DNA of 62,967 nucleotides, filler included. It is 5 parts of 5 records of this genome, joined end to end, with 100 filler letters (N's around TTAATTAATTAA, not from the genome) between each part and the next. Parts side by side here need not be neighbours in the genome. Positions count along the whole stretch, not along the records: positions 1 to 15,412 come from DRR723986_7843; 4 more parts are not named here. One strand, given 5' to 3'. The notes beneath the pieces were generated by a model. That model saw only the letters and a list, made by a program, of their open reading frames with translations, was not told the origin of the DNA and made no database searches. A program made the position numbers and the translations under genes. Shown here in pieces: positions 1 to 39,345 of this stretch. The stretch's first letter is position 1, and every line of letters begins with the position of its first letter.

Positions 1-439
1 CCCGCTGCCGCACATGCCGGTGGTCAAGGACCTTGTACCGGATCTGACCAATTTCTATGCCCAGCACCGCTCGATCGAGCCGTGGTTGAAGACAGTATCG
101 CCAGCCCCGGAAAAGGAATGGCGCCAGTCGCATGAAGACCGGGTGAAGCTTGATGGCCTGTATGAGTGCATTCTGTGCGCCTGCTGCTCCACCTCCTGCC
201 CGAGTTACTGGTGGAACGGCGACCGCTATCTCGGCCCGGCCGTCCTTCTGCAGGCCTATCGCTGGCTGATCGACAGCCGTGACGAGGCCACCGGCGAGCG
301 TCTGGACAATCTGGAAGATCCGTTCCGGCTTTACCGCTGCCACACCATCATGAACTGCTCGCAAGCCTGCCCGAAGGGCCTGAACCCGGCGAAGGCCATT
401 GCCGAGATCAAGAAGATGATGGTCGAACGCCGGGTGTAA
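1..439 (+). CDS. sdhB: Succinate dehydrogenase iron-sulfur subunit, 3' part (5' truncated)
   Basis: [12 protein letters not shown] and [12 protein letters not shown] Fe-S cluster motifs; frame open from the window edge. Confidence 0.97.
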
Positions 440-490: not shown

Positions 491-516
491 GTATTGGTTC
501 CGAACGACCTTGCCAC

Positions 517-678
517 CGTCATTCCGGACAAGCGCAGTGAAGCTGCGCACCGATCCGGAATCCAGATATCAGCGTGAGCGGAGCGAACACTCTGGAAAGA
601 TAAGGCAGCGCTATTCGCGCAGCATATTTCTGGATTCCGGATCTGCGGTCGGCTGCGCCTTCCTTGTCCGGAATGACG
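517..678. repeat. REP/MITE-like palindromic element
   Basis: Perfect 16-bp inverted repeat CGTCATTCCGGACAAG (517-532/663-678) enclosing a second inverted repeat GATCCGGAATCCAGA (552-566/629-643). Confidence 0.8.
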
Positions 679-771
679 CGGGAAAACGCTTTTGCGTTTC
701 CCGGTGCCCTGTTCTGGTCGGGCCGAAGCTGTGCCGGGATTACCGCGTTCTCAAGAAAAGCTCCACCGGCA

Positions 772-1596
772 TCACACCTTCGCCCGGCACACCAGAAGCG
801 AGCTGTTGCACCAGCCCCGGAACCCGGGAACACGACCAAGCGTGCGGGTGAGGGCGATTTCAGCGGGTTTCAGCGGGCCCCATTCGAAAGTCTTGCCGCG
901 CAGGTGGTGGAACAGTTTCCCGTGGCGGTTGGTTTCCTCGTACCAGGGGCTGAGCATCGGCAGATAGGGTAGGCACGAGAGATAGCCGATGCCGTGCACC
1001 GACTCGATCGTGACCGCGCGGCCGATGATCTCCGACCATTCGTTCAAGGTCATGCGGACCTGGTGCTCGGCGTAGTGCAGGTAGCCCAGCTTCAGCCGGT
1101 CGAGGCGGTAAAGCTGCGGAACCACGGCTAGGATCAGTCCACCCGGCGCAATGACCTCACCACATTGACGCATCACGGACTCGATCGCCGGCCCACGGCC
1201 TGGCAGATGCTCCAGCACGTCCAGAAGGGCGATCACATCCGGTTGCCAGGGCAGGTCGTCGCGGTGTTCGGAAAGACGGGTGGCGTCCAGCACGATGTCC
1301 GGTTCGAACGCCGCTTCATAATCGGCACCGCAATAGTCGAAATCCAGGCCGGTGTCGGCGAGATATTCTTTCGAAATCGAGGTCGAGCAACCGATATCGA
1401 GAATGCGCGGCGGCCGACCAAGGTCTTGTGCCCAGTCCCGGATGGTGCGGGCGACAATGTCGAACTTCACCGTTCCGTACAGGTTCCTCTGGGCGTTCGC
1501 GAGCTTCTTGACCAGATACTGCGAATGGACCGTAACTTCGGATTGCTCATCATCCGCTAGGTCTGGTCTCTCTGTTCGATCCAGAGTTTGGTGCAC
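772..1596 (-). CDS. Class I SAM-dependent methyltransferase-like protein
   Basis: ILDIGCS motif I, DVLEHL and PGG-LI segments; GTG start with AAGGAG RBS; overlaps the upstream gene by 40 nt. Confidence 0.8.
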   Translation of the reverse strand: MHQTLDRTERPDLADDEQSEVTVHSQYLVKKLANAQRNLYGTVKFDIVARTIRDWAQDLGRPPRILDIGCSTSISKEYLADTGLDFDYCGADYEAAFEPDIVLDATRLSEHRDDLPWQPDVIALLDVLEHLPGRGPAIESVMRQCGEVIAPGGLILAVVPQLYRLDRLKLGYLHYAEHQVRMTLNEWSEIIGRAVTIESVHGIGYLSCLPYLPMLSPWYEETNRHGKLFHHLRGKTFEWGPLKPAEIALTRTLGRVPGFRGWCNSSLLVCRAKV

Positions 1597-2747
1597 ACTG
1601 CCTCTCCTTCTGTCGCCAAGCGGTGAATGCCGGGTTCGTAGGTGTAGGTGGTCAGGTCGGCCATCAGCACGATCAGTTCGCCGAGGATCAGCTCGACCAC
1701 TTCATCGGCAACGCTGCCGGAGCCGGGAATGAAATTGGCCGGGTAGCCGTCGTTGACGAGGCAGATCTGCTTGTCTGCCCCCTGTTGGCCGGGAAGCTGG
1801 AAAGCCCTGATTGACGGATGAATGTCGCAGGCTGGCGACTGTTCCAGAAAATCGACGTCGATTTCGATACGCCGGGAACTGGCGCTCGCCACCAGGCAGC
1901 CGTTGCGAAGTTGCTGCAGCACGTCCCGGGTTATCGACAAGCGCCCTGCCGCCCCGACAACCAGGTCGCATTGCTCGAGATCCGCGGGATGAAGAGTCGC
2001 CGGATAACCTGACAACCTTGCTTCTGCGATTTTGAGCGGGTCGACATCGATCAGCGAGACGATGACATCCAGCCGGCGCAGGGCCTTGGCCACGCCGAAC
2101 CCGATCCAGCCCGCTCCGAAGACAGCAGCGCGCCGGCCGGCCAGGGAGTTGCCGAGATCGCGCATGAGCCCATCCAGGCACCGGGCAATGGTCTCGCCGC
2201 AACGTACCGCTTCCAGGCGCTTCAGCTCGCTGTCGGCACAGTGGAGCACAGGCACCCGCAGCCGTGTCTGCCCGGCCCGCCAGACGCCTTGCTTGGTGAT
2301 CTCCACCACGCCTTCGACAAGGTGCAGCTGATCTTGAAACCGCTCGTGCAGCAATTCGACGGCATAACCGCCGACTTCCTGAATGACGAGCTTCTGGTCG
2401 GAGGCCCGGCAGGCATCCAGGCTCTTCTGCAAGGCCTTGGCCAGGACCTCTTTGAATTCTGGCTCGGTCTTCGGGCACTGGACCTTGTCGCCGTATACGG
2501 CCTGCCATTTCAGCCGTGTCACATCACTGCCGGAGGAATACGGGATGCCGATGATTGCATCGAAATCCATGACCCCTTCCAGCGCATCGATCATGCGCCT
2601 TGTGTCGTCAAACAGATGCGCCACCAGCAGATACCGGTGCGCTTCACTCTTGAAGAGATCGAGCCGCTTGACCAGCGCCGGCAGATAGTCCGCACGTCGG
2701 GCATAGGCGGGCGCGGCCGCGGTAGATATGTCGCTTAATGGATGCAT
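1557..2747 (-). CDS. Divergent S-adenosylhomocysteine hydrolase-like NAD-binding protein
   Basis: AHL, EVGGY, VEITKQG, DSELK, GAGWIG (Rossmann), DVDP, IEID and GYPANF align with the AhcY motif order. Confidence 0.8.
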   Translation of the reverse strand: MHPLSDISTAAAPAYARRADYLPALVKRLDLFKSEAHRYLLVAHLFDDTRRMIDALEGVMDFDAIIGIPYSSGSDVTRLKWQAVYGDKVQCPKTEPEFKEVLAKALQKSLDACRASDQKLVIQEVGGYAVELLHERFQDQLHLVEGVVEITKQGVWRAGQTRLRVPVLHCADSELKRLEAVRCGETIARCLDGLMRDLGNSLAGRRAAVFGAGWIGFGVAKALRRLDVIVSLIDVDPLKIAEARLSGYPATLHPADLEQCDLVVGAAGRLSITRDVLQQLRNGCLVASASSRRIEIDVDFLEQSPACDIHPSIRAFQLPGQQGADKQICLVNDGYPANFIPGSGSVADEVVELILGELIVLMADLTTYTYEPGIHRLATEGEAVCTKLWIEQRDQT

Positions 2748-2996
2748 TGTTAGTTATTCCGAGGGTTCTGCCATTCTGGCACTGCGCCGCCGGTACGCAC
2801 AAGTGCGAGTTGTGAAATAGACAGGAAAAATGAGGCAGCAATCCAACAACTTTTGAGCCACTGCACAGGAACTGCACAAACAATACTGAAAAGCCGCTCG
2901 GCCACGCCCTTTTGTGTCCTGTTCTGTCTTCAATGATCGCCCTGTTGACCGGGTGCCCGCCTGACGGGACATCCTTCTGGCAGAGGGTTGATTTGC

Positions 2997-4463
2997 ATGA
3001 CAAGCGATACTGAAAACGACACCATTGAACAACCGCAGGAGCGACCTCAATTTTCGCAGCCCCGCTCACCCCGTGAACAGCCGGTGCGCCGAACGTCTTT
3101 TCTTGGGTCTCCGGCAGTCAAGTTCGTGATCATCGGGATGTTGACCGTGATGCTGCTGGTGCCGAGCCTGTTTGTCTGGGTGCTGGTGGAAGAACGTGCC
3201 GAAAGGGCCCGGGATGTCGCTCAGGACATCGCCCGGTCCTGGGGTGGCGTCCAGGAGATCAACGGACCGTATCTGGTTGTTCCGTTCAGCGAGACCTTCA
3301 CTGTTTCCACCGGAGAAAACGCCAAGACCGAAATTCGCTGGCACACTGCCATCCTGTTTCCGGAAAAGCTGGATGTGCGTGGTGAGATCTCCGTTCAGGA
3401 GCGCAGGAAATCGATCTATTCGCTGCCCGTCTATCATGGCAGCGTGACATTGAAGGGCCGGTTCGCGGCAACGTCGCCCAAAAACTTTCAGCCGCAGTTC
3501 GGTGGGCAAATCGACATTGCCGGGGACAAGGCGGTTCTTGTGGTCGGCATCGGCGACATCGCAGCGCTGAAAAGCGAGGTCGCACTGGTCCTGAACGACA
3601 GTGGTTCCGTGCCGTTCGAGCCTGGGCTCGGGCCGCTGACCATGGAGCCGATACGGCGGTCTGTTGCCACGATCAACGCGTCCGGTATCAACGCACCTGT
3701 CGCTGCGGGTTTGTGGCGAAACGGGTTTTCTTTCGACATCCCGATGCAGCTGAACGGCTCCACCGCCTTCTACGTTGCCCCGGCCGGTCAAACGACCAGC
3801 GTATCCCTTCAATCCGACTGGCCGCATCCCGGCTTCACCGGCGCATTCCTGCCGGAAGCGCGAGAAATCGGCGATGCCGGTTTCAACGCATCCTGGACCA
3901 TCCCCTATCTTGCCCGCGGCATTCCCAAACTGGTGCTCGGCCCGCAAATGCCGTTGCAAAACAAGGTTCTGGGAGTGCAATTCGTTGAACCCGTCAATTT
4001 CTATCAGACCATTTCCAGGTCGTTGAAATACGCAGTCTGCTTCATCAGTCTGACCTTCCTGGCGGTCTTTGTTCTGGAAATGCGCTCCGGATGGCGGGTC
4101 CATTGGATCCAGTATGGCCTGGTCGGACTGTCCCTGATCGTCTTCTACGTCATGCTGCTCGCCTTTGCAGAGCACGTTGGCTACGGCCTGGCCTATCTCG
4201 TGGCCGCTGCCGCCGCGACGCTGCTGAATGCGCTCTATATCGGGACTTCGCTCAAGAGCCGTCTTGCCGGAAGCGTGATGCTTGCGGTCCTGGCTGCGAT
4301 ATTCGGTGTGCTTTATGCGCTCATGCAGGAGCAGGACTACGCGCTCCTGATCGGTTCGATGATCGGGTTCCTGTCACTTGCCGTTACCATGTTTGCCACC
4401 CAGCGGATCGACTGGTCCGGGCAACAACAGGTCGGCACGAGGCCGCAGGCCGAAGCGGTCTGA
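2997..4463 (+). CDS. creD: Cell envelope integrity inner membrane protein CreD
   Basis: SDWPHPGFTGAFLP, RSLKYA, HWIQYGLVG and AFAEH motifs; N-terminal TM helix plus multi-TM C-terminus. Confidence 0.92.
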   Translation: MTSDTENDTIEQPQERPQFSQPRSPREQPVRRTSFLGSPAVKFVIIGMLTVMLLVPSLFVWVLVEERAERARDVAQDIARSWGGVQEINGPYLVVPFSETFTVSTGENAKTEIRWHTAILFPEKLDVRGEISVQERRKSIYSLPVYHGSVTLKGRFAATSPKNFQPQFGGQIDIAGDKAVLVVGIGDIAALKSEVALVLNDSGSVPFEPGLGPLTMEPIRRSVATINASGINAPVAAGLWRNGFSFDIPMQLNGSTAFYVAPAGQTTSVSLQSDWPHPGFTGAFLPEAREIGDAGFNASWTIPYLARGIPKLVLGPQMPLQNKVLGVQFVEPVNFYQTISRSLKYAVCFISLTFLAVFVLEMRSGWRVHWIQYGLVGLSLIVFYVMLLAFAEHVGYGLAYLVAAAAATLLNALYIGTSLKSRLAGSVMLAVLAAIFGVLYALMQEQDYALLIGSMIGFLSLAVTMFATQRIDWSGQQQVGTRPQAEAV

Positions 4464-15412: not shown

Positions 15413-15512
15413 NNNNNNNNNNNNNNNNNNNNNNNNNNNNNNNNNNNNNNNNNNNNTTAATTAATTAANNNNNNNNNNNNNNNNNNNNNNNNNNNNNNNN
15501 NNNNNNNNNNNN
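15413..15512. other. Artificial contig linker
   Basis: N-run, TTAATTAATTAA (stops in all frames), N-run. Confidence 0.99.
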
Positions 15513-26196: not shown

Positions 26197-26296
26197 NNNN
26201 NNNNNNNNNNNNNNNNNNNNNNNNNNNNNNNNNNNNNNNNTTAATTAATTAANNNNNNNNNNNNNNNNNNNNNNNNNNNNNNNNNNNNNNNNNNNN
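26197..26296. other. Artificial contig linker
   Basis: N-run/TTAATTAATTAA/N-run. Confidence 0.99.
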
Positions 26297-32911: not shown

Positions 32912-33011
32912 NNNNNNNNNNNNNNNNNNNNNNNNNNNNNNNNNNNNNNNNNNNNTTAATTAATTAANNNNNNNNNNNNNNNNNNNNNNNNNNNNNNNNN
33001 NNNNNNNNNNN
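32912..33011. other. Artificial contig linker
   Basis: N-run/TTAATTAATTAA/N-run. Confidence 0.99.
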
Positions 33012-39245: not shown

Positions 39246-39345
39246 NNNNNNNNNNNNNNNNNNNNNNNNNNNNNNNNNNNNNNNNNNNNTTAATTAATTA
39301 ANNNNNNNNNNNNNNNNNNNNNNNNNNNNNNNNNNNNNNNNNNNN
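39246..39345. other. Artificial contig linker
   Basis: N-run/TTAATTAATTAA/N-run. Confidence 0.99.

What the first reader, a model, noticed from the sequence alone, without database searches (positions are those of the whole stretch)
772..2747. Divergent SAH-hydrolase-like enzyme coupled to a methyltransferase
Seen: two overlapping genes (40 nt) with an AT-rich upstream region, inserted after sdhB beside a REP-like element. The 396-aa protein keeps the AhcY layout but alters the catalytic segments: EVGG for DDGG, EITKQG for EETTTG, and K..E without the FDN/YG motif. It also lacks the usual AhcY C-terminal tail. The partner has a non-standard motif I (DIGCST). Known: AhcY removes the inhibitor SAH using bound NAD, and AhcY paralogues occur in nucleoside-analogue pathways. 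Inference: this is not the housekeeping ahcY but a two-gene unit acting on an altered nucleoside or thioether substrate, perhaps in small-molecule synthesis or defence chemistry.
Basis: partly seen in the sequence, partly recalled or inferred. Interest (0 to 1): 0.7.

Follow-up and report, generated by a model that had tools for sequence, protein, structure and literature searches.

The report
SAH-hydrolase-like enzyme plus methyltransferase module
Two overlapping genes encode a strongly diverged relative of S-adenosylhomocysteine hydrolase and its dedicated methyltransferase partner. The pair is kept together in marine bacteria and cyanobacteria, is fused into one protein in an alga, and often sits beside signalling proteins. 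Its chemistry is unknown, but it is not the housekeeping enzyme.

Summary
On the minus strand, a 396-aa AhcY-fold protein (1557-2747) overlaps a 274-aa class I SAM methyltransferase (772-1596) by 40 nt. The 396-aa protein is not housekeeping AhcY. It scores 91.8 bits against a 497.6-bit cut-off, and a very long branch separates it from canonical AhcY. It keeps the NAD motif and the K186, H55 and N346 equivalents but has lost D131, E156, D190, H301, H353 and the C-terminal tail. All 8 carrier genomes tested also hold a canonical ahcY.

The pairing is strongly conserved: 48 of 51 genome loci, with gene order inverted between lineages. Six single proteins of 709-766 aa fuse the two, one named from the alga Chrysophaeum taylorii.

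New here: in Rhodobacterales and Granulosicoccaceae the pair sits beside a homologous double-PAS sensor, fused to a histidine kinase or to GGDEF-EAL. In cyanobacteria it sits beside a GAF-kinase giant. Distant family members sit with CYTH-guanylate-kinase, deaminase, HD and NUDIX domains or are fused to SAVED.

Best reading, at moderate confidence: a two-enzyme unit that makes or transforms a nucleoside-derived small molecule read by cytoplasmic sensors. The substrate is unknown and the family is uncharacterised.

The scan has noted related SAHH-like/sensor/methyltransferase pairings on other DNA (unchecked notes).

The parts
1557..2747 (-). AhcY-fold, NAD-binding protein of a distinct uncharacterised family ('AhcYL'), 396 aa
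   Evidence: ORF. PF00670 matches residues 191-320 only, E 5e-14. TIGR00936 scores 91.8 bits against a cut-off of 497.6. AF2 model pLDDT 92. Best folds are AhcY, TM 0.77-0.80 at 20-23% identity. Separate clade. Residue map.
772..1596 (-). Class I SAM-dependent methyltransferase partner, 274 aa, GTG start
   Evidence: ORF. PF13489 scores 35.4 bits against a cut-off of 27. AF2 pLDDT 87, and the nearest folds are generic small-molecule or tRNA-nucleoside methyltransferases at TM about 0.55-0.61. Family invariants are D67 G69 C70, D92, LLDVLEH and PQxYRLDRxK.
1557..1596 (-). 40-nt overlap of the two reading frames (likely translational coupling)
   Evidence: Coordinates. Roseibium loci overlap by 31-37 nt.
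2748..2987 (.). Divergent intergenic region shared with creD; presumed promoter region of the pair
   Evidence: GC 0.537 against 0.604 for the window. No sigma-70 consensus match was found.
2988..4463 (+). creD (inner-membrane protein), the divergent neighbour; linked to the pair only within Roseibium
   Evidence: PF06123 E 5e-131. Adjacent in 12 of 15 Roseibium loci and in no other lineage.
510..685 (.). Two 60-nt arms in inverted orientation (REP/MITE-like) between sdhB and the methyltransferase gene
   Evidence: Positions 635-678 recur inside unrelated long contigs of three RNA-library runs.
2..439 (+). 3' end of sdhB with a terminator-like hairpin at 461-488 (flank, not part of the module)

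Best explanation
The two genes form one enzymatic module. One is an NAD-binding enzyme with the complete AhcY fold but a rebuilt active site. The other is a dedicated class I SAM methyltransferase. I propose that they act in succession on one small molecule, most likely a nucleoside-derived one of the adenosine/SAH type. The AhcY-like enzyme would use bound NAD and the retained Lys (K176 = AhcY K186) for an oxidation-triggered step other than SAH hydrolysis, and the partner would add a methyl group. In many lineages the product, or its level, would be read by cytoplasmic PAS or GAF signalling proteins that control c-di-GMP turnover or phosphorelays.

Shown: the fold, the distinct family, the conserved rebuilt site, the coupling of the two genes by adjacency and by fusion, the separate canonical ahcY, and the sensor neighbourhood.

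Inferred: catalysis, the nucleoside nature of the substrate, the order of the two steps, and the role of the product as sensor ligand.
For: Fold and family:
- Full-length AhcY fold.
- Its own invariant polar set, conserved from alphaproteobacteria to cyanobacteria and into a distant soil clade: H44, Y70, S71, E149, T151, K176, E179, S288, S291, E295, N338, S345, with GxGxxG and D234 intact. Such conservation argues for an active enzyme rather than decay.

Coupling of the two genes:
- The methyltransferase is adjacent in 48 of 51 genome loci. The order is AhcYL then MT in 27 and MT then AhcYL in 21.
- It is adjacent in 27 of 30 metagenome loci of the same clade.
- Six of the 7 longer homologues are AhcYL-methyltransferase fusions of 709-766 aa.
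- In one bacterial family, 19 of the 20 genomes with AhcYL also hold the methyltransferase.

Not housekeeping:
- A canonical ahcY is present in 8 of 8 carrier genomes tested.

Sensors:
- A homologous double-PAS module of about 230 aa (18 invariant columns) lies beside the pair in 12 of 14 Rhodobacterales loci, fused to HisKA-HATPase, and in 13 of 16 Granulosicoccaceae loci, fused to GGDEF-EAL.
- In 85 Granulosicoccaceae-level genomes, the 19 best sensor matches (282 bits or more) all lie in the 24 genomes that carry the pair. In 18 of those 24 a sensor match lies on the same contig within about 3 kb.
- In 151 Rhodobacteraceae-level genomes, the two best sensor matches lie in the only two genomes with the pair.
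- In three cyanobacterial loci examined, the neighbour is a Pkinase-AAA_16 giant; the two read in full (about 1850 aa) also carry GAF and a histidine kinase.
- The sensors have no hydrophobic segment comparable to that of CreD.

Nucleoside or nucleotide substrate:
- Distant members of the same signature family sit in operons with a CYTH+guanylate-kinase fusion, a deaminase or an HD protein, or are fused to NUDIX or SAVED.
- AgmF is a precedent for an AhcY homologue with a different nucleoside reaction and tightly bound NAD (PMC8599513, passages read).
Against: - No substrate, product or activity is known for any member.
- The residues that hold the ribose diol in AhcY are replaced (E156 to I150, D190 to A180), so a ribonucleoside may not bind in the AhcY manner.
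- AgmF keeps the residues that this family has lost.
- The sensor module is much more widespread than the pair where both were counted: 89 against 20 of 132 genomes in the Roseibium family, and 57 against 24 of 85 in Granulosicoccaceae. The sensor family as such therefore does not need the pair.
- In Roseibium, including close relatives of this window, the sensor lies hundreds of kb away and is not in the window.
- The specific PAS module gave no strong match in 4 cyanobacterial genomes; one had a weak 25.6-bit match.
- The higher scores of pair-adjacent sensors are partly built in, because the profile was made from such sensors.
- Transcription was not shown.
Confidence: 0.4

Rival explanations
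1. Dedicated SAH removal. The AhcY-like protein still cleaves or sequesters the SAH released by its partner methyltransferase and so relieves product inhibition locally. The methyltransferase alone would make the biologically relevant product.
For: AhcY fold with the NAD motif, and K186, H55, E155, T157 and N346 equivalents kept. Tight genetic coupling and fusion with a SAM-dependent enzyme. In one distant locus (L120) the neighbour is a homocysteine S-methyltransferase, PF02574.
Against: The D131, E156, D190, H301 and H353 equivalents are all replaced. In AgmF, alanine substitutions at the corresponding D129, D188 and H299 abolish activity (PMC8599513). All 8 carrier genomes tested already hold a canonical ahcY. 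Distant members of the family have no methyltransferase partner at all.
Confidence: 0.2
2. Non-catalytic ligand-binding subunit. Like animal AHCYL1/IRBIT, the protein has lost catalysis and serves as an NAD- or nucleoside-binding regulator of the methyltransferase or of the neighbouring sensors.
For: Loss of five catalytic or gate residues. Recurrent neighbourhood of signalling proteins. Fusion of a family member to a SAVED sensor domain.
Against: A new set of invariant polar residues lines the former active site across phyla, which is unusual for a pseudoenzyme. In SAVED fusions the fused domain is normally the effector, not a second sensor (established knowledge of CBASS, recalled).
Confidence: 0.12
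3. Osmolyte, sulfonium or hydroxy-acid pathway. The AhcY-like protein works as a 2-hydroxyacid-dehydrogenase-type redox enzyme and the partner as an S- or O-methyltransferase. An example would be unassigned steps of DMSP-type metabolism in marine bacteria and algae.
For: Weak matches to PF02826, 2-hydroxyacid dehydrogenase. The carriers are mostly marine (Roseibium, Rhodobacterales, Granulosicoccus), and one fusion protein comes from the marine alga Chrysophaeum taylorii. The DMSHB decarboxylase of L. aggregata is still unknown, and the predicted MTOB reductase tested from Gynuella was inactive (PMC11306096, passages read).
Against: The fold match is to AhcY over both domains. The known DsyG/DsyD domains are PF08241 and PF04115, different families. 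The pair also occurs in non-marine cyanobacteria (Leptolyngbya JSC-1, Myxacorys). Only 20 of 132 genomes of the Roseibium family have it. Distant relatives keep company with nucleotide enzymes.
Confidence: 0.1
4. Defence chemistry. The pair makes a modified nucleoside or nucleotide that blocks phage replication.
For: One family member is fused to SAVED, with CBASS-effector-type matches at E 4e-24. Other members are fused to Peptidase_M78 or NUDIX. The soil-clade operon with deaminase, CYTH+kinase and small TM proteins looks like a conflict system. In Leptolyngbya JSC-1 the pair abuts a 79-repeat CRISPR array.
Against: No PADLOC match for either window protein or for the soil-clade proteins. 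Native composition. Stable chromosomal position between sdhB and creD. The neighbours are c-di-GMP and kinase sensors, not defence genes.
Confidence: 0.08

Closest known systems
S-adenosyl-L-homocysteine hydrolase (AhcY/SAHH; TIGR00936, PF05221+PF00670; e.g. PDB 5tov, 3x2f, 7o5m)
   Same: Whole two-domain fold, TM 0.77-0.80. GxGxxG and the acidic residue for NAD ribose are present. Equivalents of H55, E155, T157, K186 and N346 are kept.
   Different: 20-23% identity. 91.8 bits against a cut-off of 497.6. D131 to V, E156 to I, T158/T159 to K/Q, N181 to A, D190 to A, N191 to V, H301 to S, H353 to S, and no C-terminal tail. Separate clade. Coexists with a true ahcY. AhcY residue numbers are human numbering recalled from memory and mapped through motifs.
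AgmF, the NAD-dependent angustmycin dehydratase (PMC8599513)
   Same: An AhcY homologue that does not use SAH, keeps NAD bound, and serves a small-molecule pathway (passages read).
   Different: AgmF keeps H56, D129, K184, D188 and H299, all of them essential. The window protein keeps only the His and Lys equivalents. AgmF has no methyltransferase partner in that account.
AHCYL1/IRBIT (animal SAHH-like proteins; PDB 3mtg, 3gvp)
   Same: AhcY fold without ordinary hydrolase function; among the structural matches.
   Different: The animal proteins are close in sequence to AhcY and act as regulators (recalled). The window family is far more diverged, is bacterial or algal, and has a conserved new site.
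Methyltransferase-based signal synthase with adjacent sensor kinase (Ralstonia PhcB/PhcS)
   Same: Works-like analogy only: a SAM methyltransferase makes a signal that a neighbouring histidine kinase senses (abstracts in the listing, e.g. PMC8578825).
   Different: Phc has no AhcY-like enzyme. The sensors here are soluble PAS proteins, and in one lineage they are GGDEF-EAL enzymes.

Membership tests
AhcY / adenosylhomocysteinase (TIGR00936) | Score at or above the curated family cut-off | tested here: not met
   91.8 bits against 497.6. Canonical copies in the same genomes score 584-662 bits.
AhcY / adenosylhomocysteinase (TIGR00936) | Two-domain AhcY fold | tested here: met
   AF2 pLDDT 92. 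Foldseek top hits are all AhcY, TM 0.77-0.80 over about 396 columns.
AhcY / adenosylhomocysteinase (TIGR00936) | NAD-binding GxGxxG plus the acidic residue at the end of beta-2 | tested here: met
   G211, G213, G216 and D234 are invariant or nearly so. NAD binding itself was not measured.
AhcY / adenosylhomocysteinase (TIGR00936) | Catalytic and gate residues D131, E156, K186, D190, H301, H353 (human numbering, recalled) | tested here: not met
   Only K186 (K176) is kept. The others are V125, I150, A180, S291 and S345.
AhcY / adenosylhomocysteinase (TIGR00936) | C-terminal tail that covers the neighbour's NAD site | tested here: not met
   The protein ends about 25-30 residues before the canonical proteins do.
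AhcY / adenosylhomocysteinase (TIGR00936) | Branches within the canonical AhcY clade | tested here: not met
   27 family rows and 9 canonical rows are split by a branch with SH-aLRT 100 and length 2.94+2.94. It is a quick tree, and the canonical sample comes from the carrier genomes only.
AhcY / adenosylhomocysteinase (TIGR00936) | Hydrolysis of SAH | not testable with these tools
   Needs an enzyme assay.
AgmF-type AhcY-like dehydratases | Essential H56, D129, K184, D188 and H299 retained | tested here: not met
   The residue list comes from PMC8599513. The Asp, Asp and second His equivalents are replaced here. No AgmF sequence was available for direct alignment.
Class I SAM-dependent methyltransferases (PF13489 Methyltransf_23) | Pfam score above the gathering cut-off, Rossmann-like fold, motif I and the acidic residue after beta-2 | tested here: met
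   35.4 bits against 27. Model and fold hits. D67-x-G69-C70 and D92 are invariant. The glycine-rich motif I is degenerate (GCSTS) in this clade.
Known anti-phage defence systems (PADLOC-DB 2.0) | Significant match of either protein to a defence-system model | tested here: not met
   Best E-values are 0.043 and 0.021.
DsyGD / DMSP synthesis enzymes | DsyG (PF08241) methyltransferase with DsyD (PF04115) decarboxylase | tested here: not met
   The partner here is PF00670 (AhcY fold), not PF04115. The best Pfam family for the methyltransferase is PF13489; PF08241 scores below its cut-off.

The most novel reading that the evidence does not exclude
The pair is the synthase of an undescribed nucleoside-derived signalling metabolite with its own family of cytoplasmic double-PAS receptors that control c-di-GMP turnover or phosphorelays. 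The system would be shared by marine alpha- and gammaproteobacteria, cyanobacteria and, as a fused enzyme, an alga. More widely, the AhcY-like superfamily (1163 clusters at E 1e-30 or better) would be a general tool for making modified nucleosides or nucleotides for signalling and conflict.
Probability: 0.2. Interest if true: 0.85.

Novelty: new variant of a known kind. Interest (0 to 1): 0.62.

Why it matters
The AhcY fold is usually treated as a single-function fold, and public annotation calls these proteins 'S-adenosylhomocysteine hydrolase' (names). That is very probably wrong and misleads models of the methyl cycle.

The profile search found 1163 protein clusters (at 50% identity) at E 1e-30 or better.

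The fixed partnership with one methyltransferase, the fusion protein in an alga, and the recurring PAS/GAF sensor neighbours make this a tractable entry point. A cultivable Roseibium strain, a two-gene knockout and comparative metabolomics could reveal a new metabolite, and possibly a new input to c-di-GMP signalling in bacteria that live with algae.

Tried and rejected
- Own genome: none is held for the window, so the check for a second ahcY was made in relatives. One of them (G054) has 99%-identical copies of both genes.
- Canonical ahcY inside the window: not found by tblastn or blastn. In relatives it lies about 56-63 kb from the pair.
- Complex prediction of the two proteins: the job returned 'no answer', so nothing can be said on binding.
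- Expression: all RNA-library runs were available only as contigs. One metatranscriptome contig of 6087 nt covers 880-3200 with 31 differences, but it also runs across the divergent creD promoter and may be DNA. Three other runs matched only the repeat at 635-678 or creD. Transcription is therefore not shown.
- Promoter scan: no sigma-70 consensus upstream.
- PADLOC: no match.
- ESM Atlas: only generic cluster names.
- PDB search with the sensor profile: nothing better than E 0.02.
- PDB and Foldseek for the methyltransferase: only generic class I enzymes, no clue to the substrate.
- DMSP idea: the known DsyG/DsyD domains belong to other families.
- Literature: four searches found no paper on this bacterial pair. 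The terms were SAH-hydrolase-like with methyltransferase, quorum sensing and histidine kinase; paralogue and gene-cluster terms; CYTH, guanylate kinase and SAVED; and five spellings of 'SAHH-like'. Subscription journals are not covered.
- Earlier scan notes looked up by sequence: none.
- A LysR-type regulator cluster shared by 4 Rhodobacterales and 4 Granulosicoccus loci was not pursued, because LysR regulators are too common for the link to mean much.
Full report
THE OBSERVATION

The window carries two overlapping genes on the minus strand. A 396-aa ORF lies at 1557..2747 with an ATG start. A 274-aa ORF lies at 772..1596 with a GTG start. They share 40 nt. They lie between the 3' end of sdhB (2..439, followed by a terminator-like hairpin at 461-488) and a divergent creD gene (2988..4463; PF06123, E 5e-131).

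The 'REP-like' element is a pair of 60-nt inverted arms at 510-569 and 626-685. The upstream spacer is only mildly AT-richer, GC 0.537 against 0.604. The two genes have the GC and GC3 of their neighbours, so composition gives no sign of recent insertion.

WHAT THE LARGER PROTEIN IS

Pfam recognises only the NAD-binding domain of AhcY (PF00670, residues 191-320, E 5e-14). The NCBIfam ahcY model gives 91.8 bits against a cut-off of 497.6. The best solved relatives are AhcY enzymes at E 1e-18.

An AlphaFold2 model built on 26 family members has pLDDT 92. It superposes on AhcY structures over its whole length, at TM 0.77-0.80 and 20-23% identity. The fold is therefore AhcY.

The family is not. In a maximum-likelihood tree, 27 family rows and 9 canonical AhcY rows taken from the same genomes fall on either side of a branch of length 2.94+2.94 with SH-aLRT 100. 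This was a quick search, and long-branch warnings applied to three outlying rows.

A residue map (AhcY numbers are human numbering recalled from memory and located through motifs) gives the following.
- Retained: H55 (H44), T60 (T49), E155 (E149), T157 (T151), K186 (K176), N346 (N338), GxGxxG, and the acidic NAD-ribose ligand (D234).
- Replaced: D131 to V125, E156 to I150, T158/T159 to K152/Q153, N181 to A171, D190 to A180 (with an invariant E179 next to it), N191 to V181, H301 to S291, H353 to S345.
- The C-terminal tail is absent.

The replacements are not random decay. Y70, S71, E149, T151, K176, E179, S288, S291, E295, N338, F339 and S345 are invariant across 26 sequences from alphaproteobacteria, gammaproteobacteria and cyanobacteria. 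They are invariant again when a distant soil clade is added.

NOT THE HOUSEKEEPING ENZYME

No whole genome is held for the window. A canonical ahcY above the cut-off (584-662 bits) was found in all 8 carrier genomes examined. These were four Roseibium genomes (one with 99%-identical copies of both window genes), one cyanobacterium, one Granulosicoccus and two Rhodobacterales. The canonical gene is not inside the window.

THE PARTNER

The 274-aa protein is a class I SAM methyltransferase. PF13489 scores 35.4 bits against a cut-off of 27. The model has pLDDT 87. Its nearest structures are generic small-molecule or tRNA-nucleoside methyltransferases at TM about 0.55-0.61, which says nothing about the substrate.

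The family conserves D67-x-G69-C70, D92 and LLDVLEH. It also conserves a striking charged segment, PQxYRLDRxKLxHLHYPEHKxR. The 'GCSTS' form of motif I is specific to this clade.

THE PAIRING

- Of 51 loci found in one-genome-per-species contigs, 48 have the methyltransferase directly beside the AhcY-like gene.
- The three exceptions are a contig that ends 14 nt after the match (L024), R. denhamense (L015), and one cyanobacterial MAG (L031).
- The order is AhcYL then MT in 27 alphaproteobacterial loci, and MT then AhcYL in 21 gammaproteobacterial and cyanobacterial loci.
- In metagenome contigs, 27 of 30 loci of the same clade keep the pair.
- Within 132 genomes of the Roseibium family, 20 have the AhcY-like gene and 19 of those have the methyltransferase.
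- A search among longer proteins returned 7 hits. Six are single proteins of 709-766 aa carrying both PF00670 and PF13489, at 43-56% identity to the window protein, and one is named from the alga Chrysophaeum taylorii.
- The three fusions that were read have the AhcY-like part first, then a low-complexity linker, then the methyltransferase.

Adjacency that survives an inversion of order, plus fusion, is strong evidence that the two proteins work together.

In 12 of 14 Rhodobacterales loci and 13 of 16 Granulosicoccaceae loci, the next gene encodes a protein with a homologous N-terminal module of about 230 aa. An alignment of 18 such modules has 18 invariant columns, and Pfam sees two weak PAS domains in it. 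The module is joined to HisKA-HATPase in the Rhodobacterales and to GGDEF-EAL in the Granulosicoccaceae. The shared part is therefore the input domain, not the output.

These proteins have no segment as hydrophobic as those of CreD, so they are probably cytoplasmic.

In 85 Granulosicoccaceae-level genomes, 24 carry the AhcY-like gene and 57 carry the sensor module.
- The 19 best sensor matches (282 bits or more) all lie in carrier genomes.
- In 18 of the 24 carriers a sensor match is on the same contig within about 3 kb.

In 151 sampled Rhodobacteraceae-level genomes, 2 carry the pair and 10 carry the module. The two best sensor matches are in those 2 genomes.

Three results limit this link.
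- The profile was built from pair-adjacent sensors, so their higher scores are partly expected.
- In the Roseibium family the module is present in 89 of 132 genomes, including all 20 carriers, but it lies far from the pair.
- Four cyanobacterial genomes have no strong match to the module; one had a weak 25.6-bit match.

In the cyanobacteria the divergent neighbour is instead a Pkinase-AAA_16 giant. The two read in full (about 1850 aa) also carry GAF and a histidine kinase. In three separate lineages, then, the pair sits next to a soluble small-molecule-sensing signalling protein. The sensor family as such, however, does not depend on the pair.

THE WIDER FAMILY

A profile of both clades finds 5492 protein clusters at E 0.001 or better, and 1163 at E 1e-30 or better.

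A distant clade has 29-34% identity and comes mostly from soil metagenomes. It has the same signature, except that the E156 position is E or D. It has no methyltransferase next to it. Instead, its AhcY-like gene sits with other partners.
- It usually follows a CYTH+guanylate-kinase fusion of about 380 aa and a small protein.
- In some loci a cytidine-deaminase-like protein or a TM-DUF5919 protein comes first.
- Another subgroup has an OmpR-type regulator upstream and an HD-domain protein downstream.
- One locus has a homocysteine S-methyltransferase downstream.

Single family members are fused to SAVED, to NUDIX, and to a Peptidase_M78 domain. None of these proteins matches PADLOC, apart from the SAVED domain itself. 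The recurring partners are nucleotide-handling domains. This is the main, indirect, reason to expect a nucleoside or nucleotide substrate.

MECHANISM

The retained Lys (K186 equivalent), His (H55 equivalent) and NAD site suggest that the first AhcY step could survive: oxidation of a hydroxyl by bound NAD. The residues that AhcY and AgmF need for proton abstraction at C4' and for handling water are gone. In AgmF, D129A, D188A and H299A abolish activity (PMC8599513, passages read). Ordinary SAH hydrolysis is therefore unlikely.

I commit to a two-step small-molecule pathway: an NAD-dependent oxidation or lyase step plus a methylation. Its product would be sensed by the neighbouring PAS/GAF proteins. 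My confidence in the whole chain is about 0.4. My confidence is about 0.95 that this is a distinct family, a functional pair, and not housekeeping AhcY.

The rivals are scored separately in their own section: dedicated SAH removal, a non-catalytic ligand-binding subunit, a hydroxy-acid or sulfonium pathway of the DMSP kind, and defence chemistry.

COMPARISON AND NOVELTY

The closest known families are AhcY (fold only), AgmF (a precedent for a new reaction on the same fold, but with the canonical residues kept) and animal AHCYL proteins.

Four literature searches found no paper on this pair.

Earlier unchecked notes of this scan describe other diverged SAHH-like proteins that are fused or paired with cyclic-nucleotide-binding-type or GAF-type domains and with methyltransferases. 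I did not test those claims. They fit the theme but are not independent evidence.

I rate this a new variant of a known kind, with real potential to be more.

Noticed in passing
window 510-685: Two 60-nt inverted arms (REP/MITE-like). The stretch 635-678 also occurs inside long unrelated contigs (13.9, 16.8 and 17.6 kb) of three RNA-library runs, so it is a dispersed repeat. A 20-nt probe from the left arm found only this one copy in the window.
   Followed up: partly
window 15413-15512, 26197-26296, 32912-33011, 39246-39345: Four places with two 44-N runs each (352 N in all). These are masked stretches of the window.
   Followed up: no
L113 409-3832; L114; L117-L119; L128; L131; L133 (metagenome loci): A distant clade of the same AhcY-like family lies in a conserved operon. 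The order is deaminase-like or TM-DUF5919 protein, then a CYTH+guanylate-kinase fusion, then a small protein, then AhcYL. It is not in PADLOC and looks like an undescribed nucleotide-modifying or conflict system.
   Followed up: partly
P0103 (672 aa), P0375 (541 aa), P0361 (645 aa): Family members fused to a SAVED domain (CBASS-effector-type matches, E 4e-24), to NUDIX, and to a Peptidase_M78/IrrE-like domain.
   Followed up: partly
L050 7204-12915 (Leptolyngbya sp. JSC-1): A CRISPR array of 79 repeats (RF01343) starts 100 nt downstream of the AhcY-like gene.
   Followed up: no
L004 9790-11843 (Roseibium MAG; also G002 and G070): Downstream of the intact pair lie, in order, a 28-residue sdhB fragment, a copy of the methyltransferase C-terminal half (residues about 151-273, with stop codons in the genome matches), and then the full sdhB. 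This looks like a partial duplication at the sdhB junction, perhaps left by an insertion.
   Followed up: no
L015 (Roseibium denhamense) / G056: The AhcY-like gene is present (59% identity) without a methyltransferase, either beside it or anywhere in that genome at E 1e-25 or better. creD lies on the other side of it.
   Followed up: partly
G138 (Thermohalobaculum MAG): C3:121238-122509 and C1:1580028-1581383: Two canonical ahcY copies (647 and 607.5 bits) in addition to the AhcY-like gene.
   Followed up: no
L120 1459-2280: A homocysteine S-methyltransferase (PF02574, E 7e-52) lies directly downstream of a distant AhcY-like gene. It is a single short contig.
   Followed up: no
L016, L018, L020, L023, L027, L029 (Rhodobacterales loci): Two paralogous sensors in tandem beside the pair, both with the double-PAS module. 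One is a plain kinase of about 510-530 aa, the other a hybrid kinase with a receiver domain of about 635-675 aa.
   Followed up: partly
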